Origin: a virus
Strand: one strand, 5' to 3'
Length of the DNA: 64,000 nucleotides
IMG/VR virus record: IMGVR_UViG_3300037258_000147
Span: 32,001-96,000 of that record
The notes beneath the pieces were generated by a model. It saw nothing but the letters and a program-made list of their open reading frames with translations. It did no database searches and had not been told where the DNA came from. The position numbers were made by a program, and so were the translations under genes. Below, piece after piece: positions 2,025 to 48,870 of this stretch. Position 1 is the stretch's first letter. Each line of letters opens with the position of its first letter.

Positions 2025-3158
2025 TTAGTTAGAGCGCCGACCTTGCACTTTCTGTCTGCGAACGCCTTGATATAAAGCTTTTATCTGGGCATCGCTCAGA
2101 GAATCTAGGTCCTCGGCTGAGGGCGCGTTTTCGGTTGAGGGCGGTGCGACGGGTGTTACGTCCGACGACCTCAATCCTAACGCCGCTCTCGGGCGCGTCT
2201 CCGTTCGAACAATCCGTTCGTTCGTGGGGCGCGGCGCAGGTTCCGGTTCTGAAGACGGGACCGGCGGAGTTCTCGGGGGTTTGGGAAGTTTGACCAGCAA
2301 ATCATCGCTGCTCAAGTCTTCGAAAGCCTCCTCAATACTTTCTACTGTCCAATTACCAGTAGCAACTAAGCGGTCGAAGGTGGCGTTTTCTTCACCTTTC
2401 TTCACGATTTCACTTAGTTTAAACTTAGAAATCCATCTTACTATCGACTTGAAGTTTTCCCACTGGGGGTCTGGGTAGTAGTCTGGATTGTTTTCAATAA
2501 ATGATTTGGTAGCAGATTCCGCTTGCATTTGAGCTAAAGCATAGGTGCTTTTTTCTGCGGATTGCTGGGTCGTGCTAACCAGTTGTTGGAGAGTAAGTCC
2601 AGTTTTCTTTTGGAACCAGTTCTCCATGGCTAAGTCCGGATTATCTCCCAATTGGGTTTTAATCTCGAAAATTTCATCGGCTGACAGAACTCGATTTATC
2701 GGAAGCGGAACCGGCGGGGGGGTTGGTACCGTTTTTACTGGACTTCCTAGTTTAATCTGCTTGTTCTGTTCCCGAATCTTGTTGGTTGCGTTTATCTGGG
2801 CTTTTGCCAAGCTGGACAGCAATAACTCGTTTTTGGTCTTGCCCCAGTAAACCTGAGGATTTCCTCCAGCAGAACCAACTACTGTTAACTTCCACTGACC
2901 TTTTTCCTTTTCGAGAGTCGCGGTTCCGCCGTCAAACTCTACTGTCTCCGGGCTTTCATCTGGCGGAGGCGGCGGCGGTTCAGGATCGGAGGAAGGAGCT
3001 ACCGGCTGTCTGACAACCTCGGGTTCCAAAACTGGGTGGGGGTCTAAAGTCAGGTCCGGGTCTATTTCATCTAGTCTAGAGCTACTGAAATCTACGTGGG
3101 TAAAGGGGTCGGGATTACCGTTGGCGTCTAATAGCCATTGGTCTATTGTTGCTGGCAT
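2025..3158 (-). CDS. Putative capsid scaffolding protein
   Basis: 377 aa, Pro/Glu-rich, directly upstream of the capsid gene. Confidence 0.6.
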   Translation of the reverse strand: MPATIDQWLLDANGNPDPFTHVDFSSSRLDEIDPDLTLDPHPVLEPEVVRQPVAPSSDPEPPPPPPDESPETVEFDGGTATLEKEKGQWKLTVVGSAGGNPQVYWGKTKNELLLSSLAKAQINATNKIREQNKQIKLGSPVKTVPTPPPVPLPINRVLSADEIFEIKTQLGDNPDLAMENWFQKKTGLTLQQLVSTTQQSAEKSTYALAQMQAESATKSFIENNPDYYPDPQWENFKSIVRWISKFKLSEIVKKGEENATFDRLVATGNWTVESIEEAFEDLSSDDLLVKLPKPPRTPPVPSSEPEPAPRPTNERIVRTETRPRAALGLRSSDVTPVAPPSTENAPSAEDLDSLSDAQIKALYQGVRRQKVQGRRSN

Positions 3159-11666: not shown

Positions 11667-13910
11667 TCACTGTCCGGCGAGGAGCAACTGCGGCGGCGTG
11701 CTGCCCGTGCCACTCGTGGAGTCATTCTCAAACACCTTTTCGTCAAACTGCCGCACATCCGGCCAGAGCATCGTTCCAGTACAAGAGCCCGGGTTTGAAG
11801 CAAGCGCATATTTGATCGTCGTCGTGGTCGAACCGGTCATAAACACTTCCGCTCCGGTAGCTGTCCCGGCTCCGCTGGTTGCGCAACTGCCTCCACTGAT
11901 CTGGAGCGGGCCGATAATGTCGTTCGCATTGCCGGGGAGCCCGGAAACAGTCAGAGTCTCCGTTCCGCTGGTCCAGCTTGAGCCCGTGATGGTGTAGGAG
12001 TTCTGGTAGCTCGTGTCTACCGGTAGATGGTAGTAGGCCAGGGCCGCAGGGTTGTCATAGGCGAATCCATTGACGTGAGGGCCGCTAGTCACGTCAGGTC
12101 CAGCGGCGGGGAAAGGATTCGTCGTCGAACCGGAGCAAGAAGTCGGGAAAGTCGCCCAGCTTGTGCAAACCTTCCACCACGAGAGGCCGGTCCCGCCGGA
12201 AGGATGGGCCGTAGCCGAGTTCATGAAGAACGATGCTGGAATGGTACCCGAACCTCCGCAGACCGCTGGTGTGGAGGGGACCGAGTTTTCAAACGGCACC
12301 GCGTTCCCGCTCAAAGTTACGGGGACCTCGCTCGACTGGCACCGCACCGCATTGTTGACCGTATCGTAGTTGGCCCAGCGCATCAGGCTTGTGGGCGTCA
12401 ACGTGTCGCCAGGACCATGATTCACGCGGAAGATTGCGCCGTCGGACGTGCCCTGATACACGGTGCATTGTTGCCCATTTGTATTGCCGAGCGCATTCGC
12501 AACGGCATTGTCGAAGCGGTGAAACGAGTCGAACGAAAGGCCGTCTCCGGTGATTCCTGCGCTATGGATAAACGGTGGATCGGTGCAGGAATCGTAGTTC
12601 CTAAAGAAAGTGTTCAGGTCGCCGGTGCCCCAGGTATCGTCGTCGTCGATCCAATTCATCTCGTTGCCTTCGTTGAGGAGGAAGGAAACGCCGGAATTGA
12701 AATTGTCATGCTGGTAGTCGGTGGACTGTACGTAGTTCGCCGTGACGTTCTGCGCGAAGTTGTACGCGATCACGTCTCCGGTCGATGCTCCGTGGCCCTC
12801 AAGAAACAGACCGTTTTCAGCCAGATTGTTGATGATGAGGCTGTCGGAATCGTTCCACAGCACCACTTGGAATCCATTGCCGGACATCGTGGCCGGGGCC
12901 GCACCGAAGAAATAGCTATTGGCCAGGAGATTGTTTTTTCCTGCGGTATTGTTCCCAACGATGAGTGCGGTGCCGTTACCGCCAACGAACCGCACGCCTT
13001 TAATCCAGGAAGCGTAGCCAACAAGCGCGGTAGTGGGGCTGACGATGGTCAGGTCTTCAAGTCCGCTGCCAAATCCGCTGGTGCCGCTCGACCAGTAGAG
13101 GACGGCGGTGTTGGACGTTGACCAGTTGGGAAGATAGATTCCTGGCGCGAAGCCGAGAGTGTACGAGCCCCCGCCGTTATTGGTGACGGAGGTTATGACC
13201 ACGACTTGCTTTTGTGAGGTCTGTTGGCCGCTCCCCGAACCGCTGCCGGAGATATTGCAGACACTCGACCCTCCGCAGACAAAGACCGCGCCGTTGTCCG
13301 TGATTGATCCTGTCGGGCAGGAATTGAAGCCGGAAGTGTTCTGCGCGCTTCCGCTGAATCCAGAGTCGCATTGGTTGAACCACGCCAGCGCGTGAACCAC
13401 CGGAGTTGCGCCGGAAGCACTGGTTACCGTGACTGAAGTGGCACCGGCGGATGGGCTGGCGTTCAACGTACCGCCTCCAATTGATCCATTGCCTCCAACG
13501 CTTAGAGTTCCACCGGATTGCGTCAGAATGGTGCTCATCGGACCTGACCCGCGCAGCGTTGTGTAAGCAGCGTTGACGCTGAAATTGGAGCTCATGGAGA
13601 ATGCCCCGGCGGCCAGCAGCAGGTACGATCCTGTCGGATTTGCGGAGGCGCAGGCCGATAGCGCAGTGGCAATCGTTGATGTCGAAGTCCCTGCCGCAAC
13701 CGGTACGGTGATTCCCGCCTGAGCGGAAGTACAGGCTGGACGTGTTGGCGGAGTCCAGGGGTTAGGCGGCATCTCACCGTCAGGCAGCGAAGCGGGGAGG
13801 CCCGCCGATCCCCAATCGATTGCGCGCGCGGGAGCGATGATGCCCGACCATGATTGTGCGGGAACAAGCGAACTAGAAAACAACAGGGCCAGAAGCACAA
13901 TCTTCTTCAT
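11667..13910 (-). CDS. Signal-peptide protein, probable right-handed beta-helix (pectate lyase-like)
   Basis: MKKIVLLALL signal peptide; RAIDW..AG, TTLRGSG, GLEDLTI and Asn-ladder motifs; GC-rich. Confidence 0.75.
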   Translation of the reverse strand: MKKIVLLALLFSSSLVPAQSWSGIIAPARAIDWGSAGLPASLPDGEMPPNPWTPPTRPACTSAQAGITVPVAAGTSTSTIATALSACASANPTGSYLLLAAGAFSMSSNFSVNAAYTTLRGSGPMSTILTQSGGTLSVGGNGSIGGGTLNASPSAGATSVTVTSASGATPVVHALAWFNQCDSGFSGSAQNTSGFNSCPTGSITDNGAVFVCGGSSVCNISGSGSGSGQQTSQKQVVVITSVTNNGGGSYTLGFAPGIYLPNWSTSNTAVLYWSSGTSGFGSGLEDLTIVSPTTALVGYASWIKGVRFVGGNGTALIVGNNTAGKNNLLANSYFFGAAPATMSGNGFQVVLWNDSDSLIINNLAENGLFLEGHGASTGDVIAYNFAQNVTANYVQSTDYQHDNFNSGVSFLLNEGNEMNWIDDDDTWGTGDLNTFFRNYDSCTDPPFIHSAGITGDGLSFDSFHRFDNAVANALGNTNGQQCTVYQGTSDGAIFRVNHGPGDTLTPTSLMRWANYDTVNNAVRCQSSEVPVTLSGNAVPFENSVPSTPAVCGGSGTIPASFFMNSATAHPSGGTGLSWWKVCTSWATFPTSCSGSTTNPFPAAGPDVTSGPHVNGFAYDNPAALAYYHLPVDTSYQNSYTITGSSWTSGTETLTVSGLPGNANDIIGPLQISGGSCATSGAGTATGAEVFMTGSTTTTIKYALASNPGSCTGTMLWPDVRQFDEKVFENDSTSGTGSTPPQLLLAGQ

Positions 13911-21750: not shown

Positions 21751-21826
21751 TGGTGGACCCGGAGGGATTGCAACCCTCAAAACTACATTGCAGGTGTAGT
21801 ATGATCGCATGTTTCATCACGGGCCC
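21751..21826 (-). tRNA. tRNA-Ala(TGC)
   Basis: G3.U70, A73; CTACA-CCTGCAA-TGTAG; C33. Confidence 0.85.
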
Positions 21827-22076
21827 GTTTAAATCCAGTATACATTCCATCTTTTGCTAGAAAATGTTCAAGATCGTGGCAATTAGGACACAAAATTTCC
21901 AAATTGGACGGATCATTATTTGCGTGACTACGATCCTTATGGTGAACCTTCAAAATTCCAACTTGTTCATCATATCCGCATCGATTGCATTTCGAGGGAT
22001 AGTTTCTTCTTGCAATTTCCCGATAAGTCCCCTCTGGGGGGGGGGGGGGCGACCACCGAAGCAAGATATCCACCAT
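21783..22076 (-). CDS. HNH endonuclease (N-terminus possibly degenerate)
   Basis: CNRCGY...LKVHHKD...NN..SNL..LCPNCH; 3' end reads into tRNA-Ala. Confidence 0.75.
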   Translation of the reverse strand: MVDILLRWSPPPPPEGTYREIARRNYPSKCNRCGYDEQVGILKVHHKDRSHANNDPSNLEILCPNCHDLEHFLAKDGMYTGFKRARDETCDHTTPAM

Positions 22077-22144
22077 CTGTAGAACTTCTACGCTACAGAA
22101 CGTTCGTCACTCCAGAGTTTAGCATCCTCTGACACTTTCAAAAA

Positions 22145-22377
22145 GTCCCGCTGGTCCTCACCAATACCCGAGTCGAACGGGAAAGCGGGTTTGTCGCAGC
22201 CTACCATTAGAAGACGGTCCAAAGACCGGAGAGATTCGAACTCTCATTTACGACCCACATCAAGCCAGACATCCTATCCACTAGACGACGCTCCGACTCG
22301 GGGACTGTTTACTCGTGTTTGCATCCACGTCAGTCCTTGCTCAGAACGGGATGATTCGAACATCCGTCCTCTGGCAC
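22145..22377 (-). ncRNA. Tandem circularly permuted tRNA-like modules (YrlA-like topology)
   Basis: Three TTCGA T-arms; two of them are followed by a loop-closed acceptor stem and a D arm. Confidence 0.7.
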
Positions 22378-22379
22378 CT

Positions 22380-22455
22380 TGGAGGGAAGGGAGCGAGTCG
22401 AACGCTCTAAAGACATGATCCACAATCATGCGCCGCACCGTTTGGCTTCCAACCC
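22380..22455 (-). tRNA. tRNA-His(GTG)
   Basis: CATGA-TTGTGGA-TCATG; CCA end. Confidence 0.8.
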
Positions 22456-22994: not shown

Positions 22995-23023
22995 ATTGTC
23001 TCACAACTCTAAAAACTTGTCAA
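22995..23023 (-). promoter_or_regulatory. Sigma70-type promoter inside the tRNA array
   Basis: TTGACA-17 nt-GACAAT. Confidence 0.6.
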
Positions 23024-37285: not shown

Positions 37286-39469
37286 ATGAAACTCGTTTCA
37301 AACGCAACTACAATCGCAGAGTTCCGCGCAGATGTTCTCCAATACATCGAACTTCGCGCCGAGCAAAACCGAGCGGCTGAAAGGTCGGTCACCGGAAAGA
37401 ACATCAAGAAGATGTATATTCATGCCGCGTCTGAGATTCAGTCTATCGCCGATGATCTGCGCTATATGGACTCTGGGAATAAGGTAGCGTAATGCGTATT
37501 TTCCGGTCTCCAATATCCCGGATCAGTTGGAGGAGCGGGAATTTTCTTACATCCCAGGCGCGATCCTTGTCTGAGGTAATCAAGGGTCCGGCTAGACACC
37601 TTACGGCAAAGCCGGATTTTGTCTGCGCTGCCTGTACAAAGAATATGCACTACGCATGTGTTAGTAAAAGGTGCGAGTGCGGAAAGAAGCATTTATGACC
37701 CAAAATTTTTCCTTGACAGACCAACTAGGGTTGGCTATAATCATTGTAGCAATTTTGGAGTTGTGGTTTTTGTGGTAACTGGAATCTGTCCGAAAAATGG
37801 ACAAAAGAGGGGTTATGGAAATCAAAACCAGCACACTAGGGCCGTCTTGGGACGACTTTGAAACCGCAAGAATGAAAAGGGAAGACGAAAACGTAGCGCG
37901 GCGGGTAGCAGACTACCAGCGGCGCGGCGGATGGTTCGACCAAACCGAAGAGGAATTGTGATAGTCCCTCTGCAATACTGCTGTGACGCGCCCGGATGTA
38001 CGCAGGTTCGGACGGATACGAACCGATGGTGGGTCGTCTACACGGGATACCCCAGCCATATCGGAGTGTATACGTGGGATCACGCCGAGGCGGATCACAA
38101 ACTGGACAGCACGGACTCCCGCCACTTCTGCGGCCAAACTCACGCTCTGCAATTCGTATCATCTGAGATGGGGGTAAAATGAAACTCTCCTTCGAGGATT
38201 TTGTCTACTACTCGGAATGGCTTGAGATAGTTCGGATGGGGAATTTTGTCGGCGAGTATGAATTACGAAAAATTATTCTCAAGAAAATCCGAGAATTCAG
38301 ACGAGGCCGCCCACTTTTTGCCGGACCCTACGGGGATAAATCCGCGTGGGCTGGAATGGTCCGCAATTGGTACAAGGCATATGTGGAGGAAGCATGAAAC
38401 ACACGGAGATATTTTATTCTCTCTGCGAGGCCCACACTATTCTGTGTCTAGCCTGCGATAGGGCCGGAAACGCGGCGGATGTTTGGTGGATTCCCTTTTT
38501 CGGGCGGAACCGCTGGCGAGCCTACCGCACTGCACTCCATGCTATGGAGTACCTGCAAAAACAGGTAGGCGAAGAATACTCGCTGGCTGTTGAGGAGCTT
38601 TGCCAATGACCAATCTTTCAACCAGAAAGTCAAAGTGTATTGTCCAGTTTTCGGACACGATTCGGGAGCGGGGCCGGTTACGTGAAGTCATTATGGAGTT
38701 CTCACCCTACGGTATTAAAGTCCGACTCAAGGGCATGAGAAGTTCATACGATATTTCCCCGGCCTCTATCTACAACTCTGCTGTGCTTAAGTTTGTGGCA
38801 GCACAAAAATCTGAGAAGAAGGCCAAGAAAGCGGGGAGGAAATGAGGCAAGTGCGAAATAAATTATGGCTGCATAGTGGCTACCGGATCGGAGAAAACGG
38901 ATTCATATTTAACCGTCCAGCCTGTCGGTTGTGTAAATTGTTCGACGCCCGAGTTTGCGAAAATAAGTATTGCGTTTTTTGCTTTGTCGGACTCTTGGAG
39001 ATTCGGGGGATATGGGGATCGAGACGACGGCGGACTACGGGGGCTATCGTGCGCAGGACTCGAAAGATTTACAGGAACTCAGTTAGTCCGAAAAATGGAC
39101 AACCTGAATGACCAATCAGCTAGGCGATCTAACAGCCCGACAAGAAGCCTTACGGCATCTACGTTCCAGATGGATGAAATTATTCTTGACTAAGCCCTGG
39201 ACTTCGGATAACGTAAGGGAGAGAGCTTTGATTTGTGAGAAGATTGTTAAGTGGGGTGCAAAGTGAAAACCTACGAAGTAAAAGTACCGATTGCCGGACA
39301 CGCTTATGTTTATGTCGAGGCTGACTCGGAAGAAGAGGCTATCACAACGGCTGTGAGTGCGGCTGAGTTGCAGGATTTAGGCGGCTGGGAAGCCCTGCGG
39401 AAATTCAACATGGGCAACGTCTGTTACTGCCCGCAACCTTGGGAAGCAGAAGCTGCGGAAATGGAATAA
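37286..39469 (+). CDS. Cluster of small hypothetical genes (37286-37492, 37492-37698, 37958-38182, 38179-38397, 38394-38609, 38606-38845, 39263-39469)
   Basis: Translationally coupled short ORFs. Confidence 0.6.
37713..37741 (+). promoter_or_regulatory. Consensus sigma70 promoter
   Basis: TTGACA-17 nt-TATAAT. Confidence 0.8.
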
Positions 39470-39471
39470 CC

Positions 39472-40545
39472 GTGACTACCAAGCGCCGAGCAACATACCA
39501 ATATGACGGAACCGTAGGCGGGAAACGTCTACGGTTTTCGCTCGGAACTACTGACTCAAAATCTGCCGCGAAGTTAGAGCAGCGGATTGGGTTTGCTATC
39601 GCAGAAGGCCCGAAACCCGAAGTCTGGGAGAGCCTGAAACCTTCATTACCTCTAAGGAGCTATCAAGTCTTGACCTCAGTTATCGGCCTTACGGCGTTAC
39701 CAAATCTACGTGAATTTGAAGACACTTGGGAAAAACATTTAGACACGAGAAGGCGGCTTGGAGAAATTACCGAGTCTACTTACGACCTTTACGCTAAAGC
39801 GTCCAGGGATTTCTTCGCCCGAATGATCGAACTGAATGTCGGGAAAATGGACGAACTTACTCCAAGCGCCGTAGACGAGTATCTGGTTTGGAGACTTGAA
39901 AGCATAAAGGCAAAGGGAGGGTCTGGCCGAGGAGTAGTTACCATATCCAAGATACTTGTCCAGATTTTTGAATTGGGTATTAGGGACGGGCTGCTCAAAA
40001 CGTCGCCACTTAAGCACAAGTATAGACCAGACACAGACCCGAAAGCTCCTGATCCGTTTACCGATTCCGAAGTCCAGAAAATGGAAAATTCAGCGGATGG
40101 AATTGACCGGCTTGCTTTTCTTTTGTTGAAATGGACAGGACTAAGAAAGTCGGACGCGAGTTCGGTTACTTGGTCGGCCATAAACTGGGAGAAAGAAACT
40201 CTGACGTGGGAAACTAAAAAGCGCCATAAACAAGTCATAGTACCTTTACATGCCTCGTTAATGGCCGAGTTGAAAAAATATCGGGACGATTCAGATGTCC
40301 AAATTTTACCAATGGCCCAGAACCGGCTGTATCAACTCGTAGTAAATCTCGGAAAGAAATCTGGGGTCGAAAACTGTCACCCTCACAGATTTCGGGCATG
40401 GTTTGTATGTCGTTTGCTGGCTAAAGGTGCGAGTTTATTTGACGTGTCCAAAATGATCGGAGACTCCCACCAGGTTGTGGAAAAATATTATTCTGCTATT
40501 ACCGATGGACAACAAGAACGGGTCCGTGGTATACTAGCGGCGTAG
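39472..40545 (+). CDS. int: Tyrosine recombinase/integrase
   Basis: TGLRKSD, K, HPHRFR, GDS...Y catalytic set; N-terminal arm-binding-like segment. Confidence 0.88.
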   Translation: MTTKRRATYQYDGTVGGKRLRFSLGTTDSKSAAKLEQRIGFAIAEGPKPEVWESLKPSLPLRSYQVLTSVIGLTALPNLREFEDTWEKHLDTRRRLGEITESTYDLYAKASRDFFARMIELNVGKMDELTPSAVDEYLVWRLESIKAKGGSGRGVVTISKILVQIFELGIRDGLLKTSPLKHKYRPDTDPKAPDPFTDSEVQKMENSADGIDRLAFLLLKWTGLRKSDASSVTWSAINWEKETLTWETKKRHKQVIVPLHASLMAELKKYRDDSDVQILPMAQNRLYQLVVNLGKKSGVENCHPHRFRAWFVCRLLAKGASLFDVSKMIGDSHQVVEKYYSAITDGQQERVRGILAA

Positions 40546-45660: not shown

Positions 45661-47849
45661 TGGACAAAGTGTGGTTGGACTACGAAAGCCGAAGTACGGT
45701 TTCTCTAGAAGAAAAAGGATTGGATAATTACGTCAAGGGGCCTACTCAGGTCCTGCTTGCGGCCTACGCCTTTAATGACTTGGCTCCTAAGCTGTGGCAA
45801 CCACACCTTAGCCCAGAGATGCCTAAGGACCTGAAAGACGCCCTACTCGACCCCTTCATGCAAGTCTGGAGTTGGAACACGAGTTTCGAACGACAGGTAA
45901 CCAAGCACGTTTTAGGCATTGACAAGCCGATTGAAGAATGGCGGGACCCGATGTGCAATGCTCGGTATCTGGGACTTCCTGGATATCTGGAAGACGCCGG
46001 AAAAATCCTCGGGCTCAAAGACTCCCAAGCCAAAATCAAAGATGGTAGCCGACTAATAAAGTTGTTTTGCGAGCCTGTTGATTCGGGTGGCCGAGAAACT
46101 CTGTTTGGAATCTCAGAGCCGACATTCAATAGCTGGCACACCCACCCAAAGGATTGGGAATTGTTCTGTAAGTATTGCAAACAAGATGTGGTTGCGGAAA
46201 GAGTGCTTGCCCAAAAAATGTCGAAGTTTCCTCTTCCTCAGGAGGAACTAGAGACTTGGTTCTTGGATCAGCATATTAATGCACGGGGATGGCCGGTAGA
46301 TTTACCCACGGTCGAAGGTGCTCGGAAAATTGTCGAATTAGAATTGAAACCCTTAGTAGCCCGTCTGAAAGAACTAAGTGGATTGGACAATGTAAATTCT
46401 AGAAACCAAATCCTGGAATGGGTTTCGGAGCGCGGATACGTCTTCTCAAGTCTTGGTAAAGATTTTGTTGCGCGCGCGCTTGCTGGGGAATGTAATCTAA
46501 CCCCAGAGTGCCGAGAGGTTCTCGAAATCCGAGGACAAACCGCAAAATCTAGTGTGTCTAAGTACACAGCTTTAGCCGATATGACCTCCTCAGACGCTAG
46601 GATACGTCACCAGTACACCTATTACGGGGCACATACAGGCCGATGGGCCGCGCACGGCGTAAACATGGGTAATTTGTTTAAGCCGACAAAAGAAGTTGAA
46701 AATAAACTGGGCTTGGCCGTTAATCTTGTCCGAAAAATGGACTTTGAGGCAATACGAAAAGAATTTAGCAAGCCTATGGAAGTCGCTGCTTCGGTCCAGC
46801 GGTCGGCCTTTCGAGCCCCTGAGGGTTTTAAATTCGTGTGGGCGGACCTCGCGGGCATCGAAAACCGGGGGCTAATGTATCTCTCTCATTGCGAGGCCCT
46901 AAAGAAGGTCTACGAAGGAAAATTTACCTACTACGGACCCGACTGTCCAGAAAAAGAAATATTAAACGGACAAGAGTTCGCGCTAGACCCGTACCTAATG
47001 TTTGCTGTTCGCATGTTTAATATGAGCTACCGCGATTTATGGATAGAGTGGAAAATCAAGGGGGACAAGACCAAGAGAGATTTGTGCAAAGCTCCTGTAC
47101 TGGGCGGAGGATACGCTCTCGGAGCCGGAGAAGAAGAGATAGATAAAAAAACTGGACTACCATACTGGACCGGTTTGATGGGCTACGGAAGAAAAATGGG
47201 AATCGAAATCCCCCACGACTTAGCCGAGCAATCTATCAAGGTTCTCCGCGAAGAATGGAACGAAGTTGTCTGGCTCTGGAAAGACATGGAAAAAGCCTTC
47301 GCATTTGCTGTCCGGCATCCTGGTCATTTAACCGGGGTTGGGTTGCCTCATACCAAGCGAGAGGAGGAATATTTCGAGGAAAAGGGCCGGAAAATTTATG
47401 AGCCGATAATCTCGTTTCTGTGTCATGGTGCCAAAATCCTTGAAATGATTCTGCCGTCTGGACGGTCTTTATTTTACTTTGACCCCCGAGTAGCGTTTGA
47501 AGAAAAAGAATGGAAGGGAAGAAAATACCAGCAAGACACGCTGTACTACAAATCCAAGGACCCGAAGACCAAACAATGGGTGGAAATGGATACGTTTGGG
47601 GGCCACTTGGTTGAAAATGGGGATCAGGCTATATGCCGAGATGTGCTGGTCCATGGGATGAAAAAAGCGGATAAAATGGGATTTGAAATATGCGGGTCTA
47701 CATATGACGAGGTGATTACCTTAGTTCCTTTAAACAGTCCTCTTGGGGTAAAAGAACTTTGCGAGTGCCTTACCGACCCGCCTCTGTTTTGTGGACTAGA
47801 TTTGCCGTTAGCCGCCGAAGGAATTGAGGATTTCATCTACCATAAATAA
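45660..47849 (+). CDS. DNA polymerase, family A
   Basis: Exonuclease DYE and YCKQDV; HTGRW; motif A DLAGIE; motif B R..K...LG.GY; motif C TYDE. Confidence 0.9.
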   Translation: MDKVWLDYESRSTVSLEEKGLDNYVKGPTQVLLAAYAFNDLAPKLWQPHLSPEMPKDLKDALLDPFMQVWSWNTSFERQVTKHVLGIDKPIEEWRDPMCNARYLGLPGYLEDAGKILGLKDSQAKIKDGSRLIKLFCEPVDSGGRETLFGISEPTFNSWHTHPKDWELFCKYCKQDVVAERVLAQKMSKFPLPQEELETWFLDQHINARGWPVDLPTVEGARKIVELELKPLVARLKELSGLDNVNSRNQILEWVSERGYVFSSLGKDFVARALAGECNLTPECREVLEIRGQTAKSSVSKYTALADMTSSDARIRHQYTYYGAHTGRWAAHGVNMGNLFKPTKEVENKLGLAVNLVRKMDFEAIRKEFSKPMEVAASVQRSAFRAPEGFKFVWADLAGIENRGLMYLSHCEALKKVYEGKFTYYGPDCPEKEILNGQEFALDPYLMFAVRMFNMSYRDLWIEWKIKGDKTKRDLCKAPVLGGGYALGAGEEEIDKKTGLPYWTGLMGYGRKMGIEIPHDLAEQSIKVLREEWNEVVWLWKDMEKAFAFAVRHPGHLTGVGLPHTKREEEYFEEKGRKIYEPIISFLCHGAKILEMILPSGRSLFYFDPRVAFEEKEWKGRKYQQDTLYYKSKDPKTKQWVEMDTFGGHLVENGDQAICRDVLVHGMKKADKMGFEICGSTYDEVITLVPLNSPLGVKELCECLTDPPLFCGLDLPLAAEGIEDFIYHK

Positions 47850-47907
47850 TCCAGATCGCGGATTGACAACTCGAAACATGTGGTATAATGCGAACAAAGG
47901 AGAAAAA

Positions 47908-48870
47908 GTGGAACATATCCCTTTCCCCGAAATTCATCAATTTCGGAACACGATTAGAACTGTGCGAGAACGAGCAGAATGCGACGGAGTTCCTCTTCCA
48001 ATCATTACTTTTGTGGGATCGGTGAAATTGCACGGAACTAACGCTTCGATTGTGTTTCCCGAATCGGGAGGGTACTATTGTCAGTCTCGCTCTCACGTAA
48101 TCACACCAGGACAAGACAACGCTGGATTTGCTCGTTGGGTCGAAAACAACAAAGAATTGTTCGAGCGTCTAGAGAAGTCCGGAGTGATTCTATATGGAGA
48201 GTGGTGCGGGCAAGGAATTCAAAAGGGCGTGGCCATATCACATATGCCGAAGAAATTCATCGTGTTTTCTGTCCGAAAACTGGACAATTTGTCTTGGTTT
48301 TCCAAACTGGGGGTCTGCGTCCTGCTGGAAGGGTTACTTTGTATCTATGATTATCCAAATTGGACCTTGGATATTGACTTTTCTCGTTCCGAGGACTCTC
48401 AGAATCGCTTGGTAGAATTGACCACTGCTGTCGAAACCGAGTGCCCTGTAGGAAAGGCTTTCGGGGTTTCTGGAGTAGGAGAAGGCGTAGTTTGGTGGCC
48501 TGAATCTCATCCGACATTCAACACCGAGGGGTTGGCCTTCAAGGTAAAGGGAGAAAAACATTCCGAATCCAAAGTAAAGAGTCTAGCTTCCGTGGATGTG
48601 GAAAAATTGGAAACCGTCAAGGAATTGGTAAACACAATCATAACCGATCACCGTTTGGAAAAGAAACTAGATTCTCTCCAAGAGCGAGGCATTTCTTTTG
48701 ACATCAAAAATACTGGGCAGTTTCTAAAGCTGATAGGGGCCGACGTTTGGAAGGAAGAATCTGACACCATTCTGGCCTCTGGATTCAAAGAAAGCGAGAT
48801 CATGGGAGCCGTCCAGAAACGGGCGAAACAGTGGTGGATGGAGCAACTAGCGAATGTGGCCGTGGTCTAA
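47908..48870 (+). CDS. RNA ligase (Rnl2-like)
   Basis: KLHGTN, YGEWCG.GIQ, GEGVVW, FKVK; GTG start after AAGGAG. Confidence 0.82.
   Translation: MEHIPFPEIHQFRNTIRTVRERAECDGVPLPIITFVGSVKLHGTNASIVFPESGGYYCQSRSHVITPGQDNAGFARWVENNKELFERLEKSGVILYGEWCGQGIQKGVAISHMPKKFIVFSVRKLDNLSWFSKLGVCVLLEGLLCIYDYPNWTLDIDFSRSEDSQNRLVELTTAVETECPVGKAFGVSGVGEGVVWWPESHPTFNTEGLAFKVKGEKHSESKVKSLASVDVEKLETVKELVNTIITDHRLEKKLDSLQERGISFDIKNTGQFLKLIGADVWKEESDTILASGFKESEIMGAVQKRAKQWWMEQLANVAVV

What the first reader, a model, noticed from the sequence alone, without database searches (positions are those of the whole stretch)
22145..22377. Tandem array of circularly permuted tRNA mimics directly downstream of tRNA-His
Seen (minus strand): module 1 is CCAGA, T arm GGATG-TTCGAAT-CATCC, acceptor helix CGTTCTGA/TCGGAGCG capped by an extra hairpin (GGACTG...CAGTCC), D arm GTC-TAGTGGATAG-GAT, then TCTGG. 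Module 2 is GTCGT, T arm GAGAG-TTCGAAT-CTCTC, acceptor CGGTC-TTTG-GACCG, D-like TCT-AATGGT-AGG, then GCGAC. Module 3 is a reduced unit, CCCGCT...CCCG-TTCGACT-CGGG...AGCGGG. The order is T arm, loop-closed acceptor, D arm, so the tRNA is opened at the anticodon. Known: this topology matches the tRNA-like domain of bacterial YrlA Y RNAs and permuted tRNA genes. However, YrlA is a single module next to a Ro60/Rsr gene, and no TROVE protein is in this window. Inference: a multivalent tRNA-elbow mimic with no anticodon and no CCA, possibly a decoy or sponge for tRNA-targeting defences or tRNA-binding enzymes, or a substrate of the phage RNA ligase.
Basis: partly seen in the sequence, partly recalled or inferred. 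Interest (0 to 1): 0.9.

Follow-up and report, generated by a model that had tools for sequence, protein, structure and literature searches.

The report
Handle-less tRNA mimic RNAs in phage
Right after the histidine tRNA gene of an uncultured 105-kb phage lie two (perhaps three) small RNA genes that fold like a tRNA written in rotated order, with a sealed amino-acid end and no anticodon. They look like the tRNA-shaped 'head' of bacterial Y RNAs, but the phage has no detectable Ro60 partner, so they are probably free tRNA look-alikes.

Summary
On the minus strand, module 1 (22375-22264) and module 2 (22254-22193) are complete tRNA cloverleaves in rotated order: closing stem, 4-nt variable loop, T arm, loop-sealed acceptor arm, D arm, closing stem. 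Module 3 (22189-22147) is only a T-arm-like hairpin inside a 6-bp stem, with no support beyond its sequence.

Module 1 is conserved in the same slot (tRNA-His-CCA, then AGGTG) in one related phage. There, four T-stem pairs, two acceptor pairs and the tertiary 15:48 pair have changed on both sides and still pair. A third, near-complete relative lacks it.

It is not a decoding tRNA: there is no anticodon loop and no CCA. It is not a YrlA family member: RF02553 scores 15 bits on module 2 against a threshold of 69 and nothing on module 1, there is no Ro-binding handle, and no TROVE gene was found. It is also not tied to the phage RNA ligase.

Best reading: Ro60-independent tRNA-body mimics cut out of the tRNA operon. 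What they do in trans or in cis is inferred, not shown.

This scan has noted similar 'handle-less' mimics on other phage DNA. I found no paper describing them.

The parts
22380..22455 (-). tRNA-His(GTG) with encoded CCA. Its 3' end is 5 nt upstream of module 1.
   Evidence: ARAGORN; Rfam tRNA model 36.4 bits.
22264..22379 (-). Module 1: AGGTG leader, 6-bp closing stem (22375-22370 with 22269-22264), 4-nt variable loop, T arm, 7-8-bp acceptor stem sealed by an extended hairpin, 2-nt linker, D arm.
   Evidence: Coordinates. De-permuted ARAGORN call. Only permuted tRNA in the genome. MFE fold is the rotated cloverleaf. A covariance model built from the relative's copy alone hits it at 31.7 bits, E about 1e-9. 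Compensatory pairs.
22313..22330 (-). Tip of the module 1 acceptor arm: 4-bp stem with an 8-nt loop G(A/G)TGCAAA (loop 22325-22318).
   Evidence: The loop is 7/8 identical in the relative although the rest of the arm differs. Its last six bases equal positions 33-38 of the phages' own tRNA-Cys anticodon loop. Meaning unknown.
22193..22254 (-). Module 2: 5-bp closing stem, 4-nt variable loop, T arm, 5-bp acceptor stem with a tetraloop, 3-nt linker, weak 3-bp D arm with GG.
   Evidence: Coordinates. Relaxed descriptor hit. MFE fold is a four-way junction. The Rfam YrlA model aligns its T, AS and D elements at 15.4 bits, far below threshold. No homolog found elsewhere.
22147..22189 (-). Module 3: 6-bp stem enclosing a 4-bp T-arm-like hairpin and a 3-bp hairpin. 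No acceptor arm.
   Evidence: Sequence; MFE fold, z = -1.2. No comparative support. Weakest part.
22113..22131 (-). Hairpin in the leader of the HNH gene with loop GATGCTAAA, which resembles the module 1 tip loop.
   Evidence: 5/5 stem here and at the same place after tRNA-His in relative G002, with two covarying pairs. The link to module 1 is weak (alignment p about 0.01).
21783..22076 (-). HNH homing-endonuclease ORF (97 aa), downstream neighbour. It overlaps the 5' half of tRNA-Ala (21826-21751).
   Evidence: Pfam HNH, 1.3e-6. The G002 homolog is 193 aa.
22995..23023 (-). Promoter-like site upstream of the sub-operon that holds tRNA-His and the modules.
   Evidence: TTGACA-17-GACAAT with TG, a consensus match only. 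No terminator-like site on this strand before the modules.

Best explanation
Modules 1 and 2 are genes for non-decoding, tRNA-shaped RNAs. Each is a full tRNA body (acceptor/T-arm stack, D arm, elbow contacts) written in rotated order. The acceptor end is sealed by a loop, and the 5' and 3' ends sit where the anticodon loop would be. This is the architecture of the tRNA-like 'head' of YrlA Y RNAs, but without the Ro60-binding handle and, as far as can be detected, without a Ro60 gene.

Shown: the fold, its statistical rarity, its position in a tRNA slot, and selection for pairing in module 1.

Inferred:
- They are transcribed with the tRNA operon.
- They are freed passively: 3' processing of tRNA-His makes the 5' end, and cleavage further downstream makes the 3' end.
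- The free RNA then acts as a tRNA look-alike that cannot be charged or decode. It would occupy or recruit a factor that reads the tRNA body (elbow plus acceptor/T helix) rather than the anticodon.
- Module 1 of this phage, with 7-8 acceptor pairs, may also be nicked by RNase P, as M. smegmatis YrlA is. The shorter arms of module 2 and of the relative's copy probably are not.
For: Structure:
- All junction lengths of modules 1 and 2 match a tRNA.
- U8:A14, G18G19, the T-loop and G53:C61 are present.

Rarity:
- Module 1 is the only hit of two independent detectors in 104.7 kb, and shuffles give none.

Selection:
- In relative G001 (portal 71% identical) the element sits in the same slot after His-CCA plus AGGTG.
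- Compared with it, 4 T-stem pairs and 2 acceptor pairs are changed on both sides and still pair.
- The Levitt pair is G15:C48 here and A15:U48 there.
- A model built from G001 alone retrieves module 1 at E about 1e-9, ahead of every tRNA-tRNA junction.
- Same-slot tRNAs of the two phages are only 53-97% identical, so a neutral remnant would have lost its pairing.
- In G001 no T arm follows the D arm, so a linear reading is impossible there.

Not a tRNA: the best linear reading scores 23 bits against 29, with broken stems.

Precedent: the YrlA topology and its recognition by tRNA enzymes (PMC4201824).
Against: - Only two genomes carry module 1, so covariation rests on one pairwise comparison.
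- A 98%-complete relative (G002) lacks it, so it is dispensable.
- Modules 2 and 3 have no homologs at all.
- There are no expression or processing data.
- The invariant leader and closing stem could be kept for a DNA-level reason, since the array is full of homing endonucleases.
- No binding partner is identified.
Confidence: 0.5

Rival explanations
1. Cis-acting punctuation or stability element. The tRNA-shaped modules exist to guide or block host RNases on the polycistronic transcript, for example by defining the 3' trailer of tRNA-His or capping the 5' end of the HNH message. They would have no role as free RNAs.
For: Module 1 always directly follows His-CCA with the same 5-nt spacer. The modules precede an HNH ORF here. 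M. smegmatis YrlA is an RNase P substrate (PMC4201824).
Against: G002 matures the same tRNA-His slot without it. G001 has module 1 but no HNH gene after it. RNase P would cut inside the acceptor cap, not at the His junction. A plain hairpin would do the job, yet the tertiary tRNA contacts are kept.
Confidence: 0.2
2. Recombination debris. The modules are remnants of tandem tRNA genes (3' half, spacer, 5' half) left by homing-endonuclease-driven rearrangement, with no function.
For: The array holds HNH, T5orf172 and EndoVII genes. The D arm and closing stem are of the Glu/Gln-tRNA type. Modules 2 and 3 are unique to this phage. G002 lacks the element. The HNH leader is weakly similar to module 1.
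Against: Six doubly compensated pairs plus a compensated tertiary pair between two phages whose real tRNAs have diverged to a median of about 64% identity. There are no close paralogs of either half in the arrays. The same rotated arrangement occurs twice in a row, with tRNA-exact junction lengths.
Confidence: 0.15
3. True Y RNA: the modules bind a Ro60-like ring protein of the phage or host that sequence models miss.
For: Same head architecture as YrlA. Phage Ro60-like proteins recognisable mainly by structure sit beside tRNA arrays in other phages (PMC11482910; PMC12282133).
Against: No TROVE or DUF2828 match in six frames of a 97%-complete genome (the DUF2828 control rang nowhere, so that test is weak). 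No long handle and no GNCGAA motif. RF02553 gives no hit on module 1. The large unknown neighbours look like tail fibre and beta-helix tailspike. Several other large proteins stay unannotated.
Confidence: 0.1
4. Permuted tRNA gene. The ends are joined by an RNA ligase and the acceptor cap is removed, giving a working tRNA, as in red-algal permuted tRNA genes.
For: The 3' half lies upstream of the 5' half. The phage has an RNA ligase (PF09414). Module 1 has a 7-8-bp acceptor stem.
Against: The sequences that would form the anticodon loop are not conserved in length or sequence between the two phages. There is no CCA or usable discriminator. G001's acceptor has 6 pairs with a bulge and an 8-nt cap. 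G001 lacks the ligase and G002 has it without module 1.
Confidence: 0.03

Closest known systems
YrlA (Y RNA-like A; Rfam RF02553), the Ro60/Rsr-bound Y RNA of bacteria and mycobacteriophages (Chen et al. 2014, PMC4201824)
   Same: The order is closing stem, variable loop, T arm, loop-sealed acceptor-like stem, 2-nt linker, D arm, closing stem. tRNA tertiary contacts are kept, including a covarying 15:48 pair. The Rfam model aligns these elements on module 2.
   Different: No long 5'/3' handle and no GNCGAA motif. No TROVE gene within 4 kb or anywhere in the genome. Scores are far below the 69-bit threshold. The T and D stem sequences are not the near-invariant YrlA ones. The modules sit in tRNA slots of a tRNA operon, two or three in tandem.
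Phage Ro60-like proteins beside tRNA arrays (Bas63 gp130, PMC11482910; Listeria phage CKA15_055, PMC12282133; Thermus phage phiLo Ro60 with Yrl1/Yrl2, PMC12135203)
   Same: Phage context, next to or inside tRNA gene arrays. Those authors suspect that some 'tRNA genes' are Y RNAs.
   Different: Those cases are defined by the protein. Here no such protein was found, and the RNAs lack a handle.
Circularly permuted tRNA genes of Cyanidioschyzon merolae and some green algae
   Same: The 3' half is encoded upstream of the 5' half, with a spacer between the acceptor strands.
   Different: Those mature into charged, decoding tRNAs through a circular intermediate. Here there is no conserved anticodon loop and no CCA, and in the relative the acceptor is too short.
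tmRNA tRNA-like domain, including two-piece (permuted) tmRNA
   Same: A T arm plus acceptor stack on a long helix instead of an anticodon arm. 17 nt of module 1 (leader, closing strand, variable loop) equal the stretch before the T arm of an actinobacterial tmRNA.
   Different: No tag reading frame, no alanine-type free acceptor end, and a full D arm. ARAGORN and Rfam find no tmRNA here. The 17-nt identity was selected by my own search pattern and is probably chance.

Membership tests
YrlA (RF02553) | Reaches the Rfam gathering score (69 bits) | tested here: not met
   No hit on module 1 at E<=10. Module 2 scores 15.4 bits, and only with lax filters.
YrlA (RF02553) | T arm, acceptor-like stem-loop and D arm in that order inside a closing stem | tested here: met
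   topology as described in PMC4201824.
YrlA (RF02553) | Long 5'/3' handle with the GNCGAA(N)G Ro-binding motif | tested here: not met
   The closing stems are 5-6 bp. The handle positions of the model are unmatched. There is no such motif in the flanks.
YrlA (RF02553) | Encoded within about 4 kb of a Ro60/TROVE gene on the same strand | tested here: not met
   PF05731 gives no match in six frames of the 104,680-nt, 97%-complete genome, and the controls rang.
tRNA (RF00005) | Linear cloverleaf with anticodon loop and free acceptor end | tested here: not met
   The best linear reading (module 1 D arm plus module 2 T arm) scores 23 bits against 29, with mismatched stems. Module 1 is tRNA-like only after de-permutation.
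Permuted tRNA gene (algal type) | Halves that can be joined into a conserved 7-nt anticodon loop; a removable spacer leaving discriminator plus CCA | tested here: not met
   The flanks beyond the closing stem differ between the two phages, there is no CCA, and the relative's cap is an 8-nt loop.
tmRNA (one- or two-piece) | Detected by ARAGORN or Rfam; tag ORF with resume codon | tested here: not met
   no plausible tag frame on reading the sequence.
Handle-less permuted tRNA mimics of phage tRNA arrays (class noted earlier by this scan, unpublished as far as I could find) | Rotated tRNA body with sealed acceptor, short closing stem, in a tRNA slot, no Ro60 gene | tested here: met
   The class itself rests on AI notes that I did not verify, apart from seeing unrelated long-stem mimics in L010 and L205.

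The most novel reading that the evidence does not exclude
Free-standing tRNA-body mimics are a Ro60-independent class of phage RNAs with a job of their own. They are released from the tRNA operon by the cell's tRNA-processing enzymes. They then bait or block a host factor that reads the tRNA elbow and acceptor/T helix. In the module 1 lineage, the sealed acceptor tip also displays a conserved anticodon-loop-like sequence (U-GCA-AA, the same as the phage tRNA-Cys loop, and containing an Ala codon), so the RNA would present a bait loop on a tRNA body.
Probability: 0.25. Interest if true: 0.8.

Novelty: new variant of a known kind. Interest (0 to 1): 0.58.

Why it matters
The tRNA-like half of bacterial Y RNAs has no assigned function. 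Here that half occurs alone, without the Ro60-binding half or Ro60, so whatever it does must be done by the tRNA-shaped body itself. That makes the question directly testable.

It also means that some 'slots' in large phage tRNA arrays are not tRNAs. This matters for annotation and for models of how phages handle host attacks on tRNA.

This locus adds three things: a tandem arrangement, a second phage showing compensatory evolution that includes a tertiary pair, and a natural loss variant (G002) for comparison.

Tried and rejected
- Exact and degenerate DNA pattern scans for module 1 found only G001 plus ordinary tRNAs, tmRNAs and noise. Collections scanned: IMG/VR, metagenome contigs and one-genome-per-species prokaryote contigs.
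- BLASTN of the region against cultured phages found no match.
- The portal protein has no prophage relatives in prokaryote genomes, so the host is unknown. An Atlas hint points to Acidobacteriota for the tailspike only.
- The flanking 189-aa protein led to a relative (L002) with no tRNA array.
- Model R1 found nothing in 22 related records or in 62 other loci beyond tRNA-tRNA junctions.
- ARAGORN with introns on duplicated windows gives many false 'permuted' calls at tRNA-tRNA junctions when the minimum intron is above 0. I used only the setting that suppresses them.
- tmRNA, attP-fragment and small-ORF readings were considered and dropped. There is no tag frame. The integrase is 17 kb away. 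The short ATG frame inside module 1 is absent from G001.
- The MAFFT pairwise alignment of the two module 1 copies misaligns the acceptor, so pairs were counted by explicit segmentation rather than with the count of structure pairs.

Full report
Setting. The window is bases 32001-96000 of a 104,680-nt IMG/VR phage record judged 97% complete. Its minus strand carries a tRNA array from 27818 to 18396. ARAGORN tRNAs there and Rfam 20. The array is interspersed with homing-endonuclease genes of the HNH, T5orf172 and EndoVII types. tRNA-His(GTG) with its encoded CCA occupies 22455-22380. A promoter-like site lies upstream at 23023-22995, and no terminator-like site follows on that strand (consensus matches only).

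The observation.
- Module 1 (22375-22264) reads: 6-bp closing stem, 4-nt variable loop, 5-bp T stem with TTCGAAT, a 7-bp acceptor stem plus a T:A pair whose strands are joined by a 44-nt extended hairpin, a TC linker, a 4-bp D stem with GG in its loop, one base, and the closing stem.
- Module 2 (22254-22193) has the same plan with a 5-bp acceptor stem, a tetraloop and a weak D arm.
- Module 3 (22189-22147) is a 6-bp stem around a 4-bp T-arm-like hairpin and a 3-bp hairpin.
- RNAfold gives exactly these folds as the minimum-energy structure of each isolated module, with z-scores of -1.2 to -1.8, tRNA-like in size.
- The 256-nt stretch folded as one RNA is no better than shuffles.

Is it more than chance?
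- After swapping its halves, module 1 is called a tRNA by ARAGORN.
- Running ARAGORN with introns on tandem-duplicated 260-nt windows makes a permuted tRNA look like an intron-containing one. This finds module 1 as the only such element in the genome.
- A strict descriptor of the rotated cloverleaf finds only module 1, and a relaxed one only modules 1 and 2. It gave none in 30 Markov shuffles and four in 1.7 Mb of unrelated loci, one of them a true mimic and one a junction of identical tandem tRNAs.
- Two adjacent hits within 180 nt are therefore not chance. Module 3 has no such support.

Relatives.
- The portal protein finds 33 related IMG/VR contigs. Two long ones, G001 (110 kb, 100% complete) and G002 (106 kb, 98% complete), have syntenic tRNA arrays.
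- In G001, tRNA-His-CCA is followed by the same AGGTG and the same closing strand, then a compact 77-nt copy of module 1, then an odd tRNA-Ala(TGC) 10 nt later.
- In G002, tRNA-His is followed directly by the leader of an HNH gene, and there is no module.
- Pattern scans of IMG/VR, metagenome contigs and prokaryote genomes found no further copy, nor did BLASTN against cultured phages.

Selection.
- Between the two copies, the leader, the closing stem, most of the D arm and the T loop are nearly invariant.
- Four of five T-stem pairs and two acceptor pairs are changed on both sides and still pair. Three more pairs switch between G-U and G-C.
- The tertiary Levitt pair is G15:C48 here and A15:U48 in G001, and also in module 2. 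U8:A14 is kept.
- A covariance model built from the G001 copy alone finds window 22264-22380 at 31.7 bits, E about 1e-9 in 127 kb. The next hits are tRNA-tRNA junctions at 21 bits or less with broken closing stems.
- Same-slot tRNAs of the two phages are only 53-97% identical, with a median near 64%. Module 1 has therefore evolved as the real tRNAs have, not as a neutral remnant.
- Neither half has a close paralog in the three arrays.
- In G001 no T arm follows the D arm, so the linear reading that Rfam scores at 23 bits here cannot apply there.

What it is not.
- It is not a decoding tRNA. There is no anticodon loop and no CCA, and the bases beyond the closing stem differ between the phages.
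- It is not a tmRNA. A 17-nt identity to an actinobacterial tmRNA was selected by my own pattern and is probably chance.
- It is not a member of YrlA. RF02553 gives nothing on module 1 and 15.4 bits on module 2 against a threshold of 69. Only the T, acceptor-like and D elements align, and the handle is unmatched.
- No TROVE or DUF2828 match exists in six frames. The DUF2828 control did not ring, so that test is weak.
- The two large unknown genes next to the array look like a tail fibre and a beta-helix tailspike. Several other large proteins remain unannotated, so a cryptic Ro-like fold is not excluded.
- It is not tied to the phage RNA ligase (window 47824-48870, PF09414). That gene is present in G002, which lacks module 1, and absent from G001, which has it.

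How it most likely works.
- Shown: a tRNA body with a sealed acceptor end, sitting in a tRNA slot and under structural selection.
- Inferred: it is transcribed with the operon and released by the processing of its neighbours. It then acts as an uncharged, non-decoding look-alike for a factor that reads the elbow and acceptor/T helix.
- The precedent is YrlA. Its head is modified by tRNA enzymes, and in M. smegmatis, where the acceptor stem has 7 pairs, it is cut by RNase P and receives CCA (PMC4201824).
- By that rule, module 1 of this phage may be nicked. Module 2 and the G001 copy probably are not.
- A purely cis-acting role and a debris origin are the main rivals. G002 shows that the element is dispensable.

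Unexplained detail.
- The acceptor tip of module 1 ends in an 8-nt loop, G(A/G)TGCAAA, that is 7/8 identical in G001 although the arm below it is 6 bp there and about 19 bp here.
- The loop's last six bases equal positions 33-38 of the phages' own tRNA-Cys anticodon loop.
- A hairpin with loop GATGCTAAA follows at 22131-22113 in the HNH leader. It recurs right after tRNA-His in G002 with two covarying stem pairs.
- The leader is weakly similar to module 1 (p about 0.01). The leader may be a decayed or re-purposed paralog. I could not settle this.

Comparison and novelty.
- Phage Y RNAs with Ro60 are known (PMC4201824, PMC12135203). Ro60-like proteins beside phage tRNA arrays have been noted, with the guess that some tRNA genes are Y RNAs (PMC11482910, PMC12282133).
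- In five literature searches I found no description of handle-less, Ro60-less permuted mimics in tRNA arrays.
- Notes of this scan report similar elements in at least 15 other phage genomes. I treat these as leads. In passing I saw unrelated long-stem mimics in L010 and L205.
- This locus is therefore a new variant of a known kind, not a new kind.

Noticed in passing
window 22036-22049 (minus strand): A run of 14 C lies in the leader just upstream of the 97-aa HNH ORF start at 22076. The G002 homolog is 193 aa and has an interrupted C-run there, so the gene here looks N-terminally shortened or phase-variable.
   Followed up: partly
window 21783-21826: The 3' end of the HNH ORF overlaps the first 44 nt of tRNA-Ala(TGC) on the same strand. 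Its stop codon lies in the anticodon stem.
   Followed up: no
L057 6521-6596 (G001): A tRNA-Ala(TGC)-like gene with a 4-nt D loop and an extended anticodon stem is missed by ARAGORN and by the Rfam tRNA model. Several tRNAs of these phages are non-canonical, and other notes on this genome say the same.
   Followed up: no
L010 178-253 (+); L205 about 2930-3010 (-) and 13470-13590 (-): Unrelated phage contigs carry permuted, acceptor-sealed tRNA mimics with long (7-10 bp) closing stems and a shared 5' ACAGCAG / GCAGCAAAC-like motif. This is the 'handled' form of the same idea.
   Followed up: partly
window 39439-40545 (+) and 47824-48870 (+): A tyrosine integrase and an RNA ligase (PF09414). The ligase is present in G002 but absent from G001. 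The integrase is in all three phages, yet no prophage relatives were found in prokaryote genomes.
   Followed up: partly
window 22366-22382 (minus strand) vs L114 915-931: 17 nt (end of His CCA, leader, closing strand, variable loop) are identical to the stretch before the T arm of an actinobacterial tmRNA. This is probably chance, given that the search pattern fixed 13 of them.
   Followed up: partly
window 11667-13910 (-): A 747-aa protein next to the array resembles beta-helix / pectate-lyase-like proteins found mostly in Acidobacteriota. This is a weak hint at the host.
   Followed up: no
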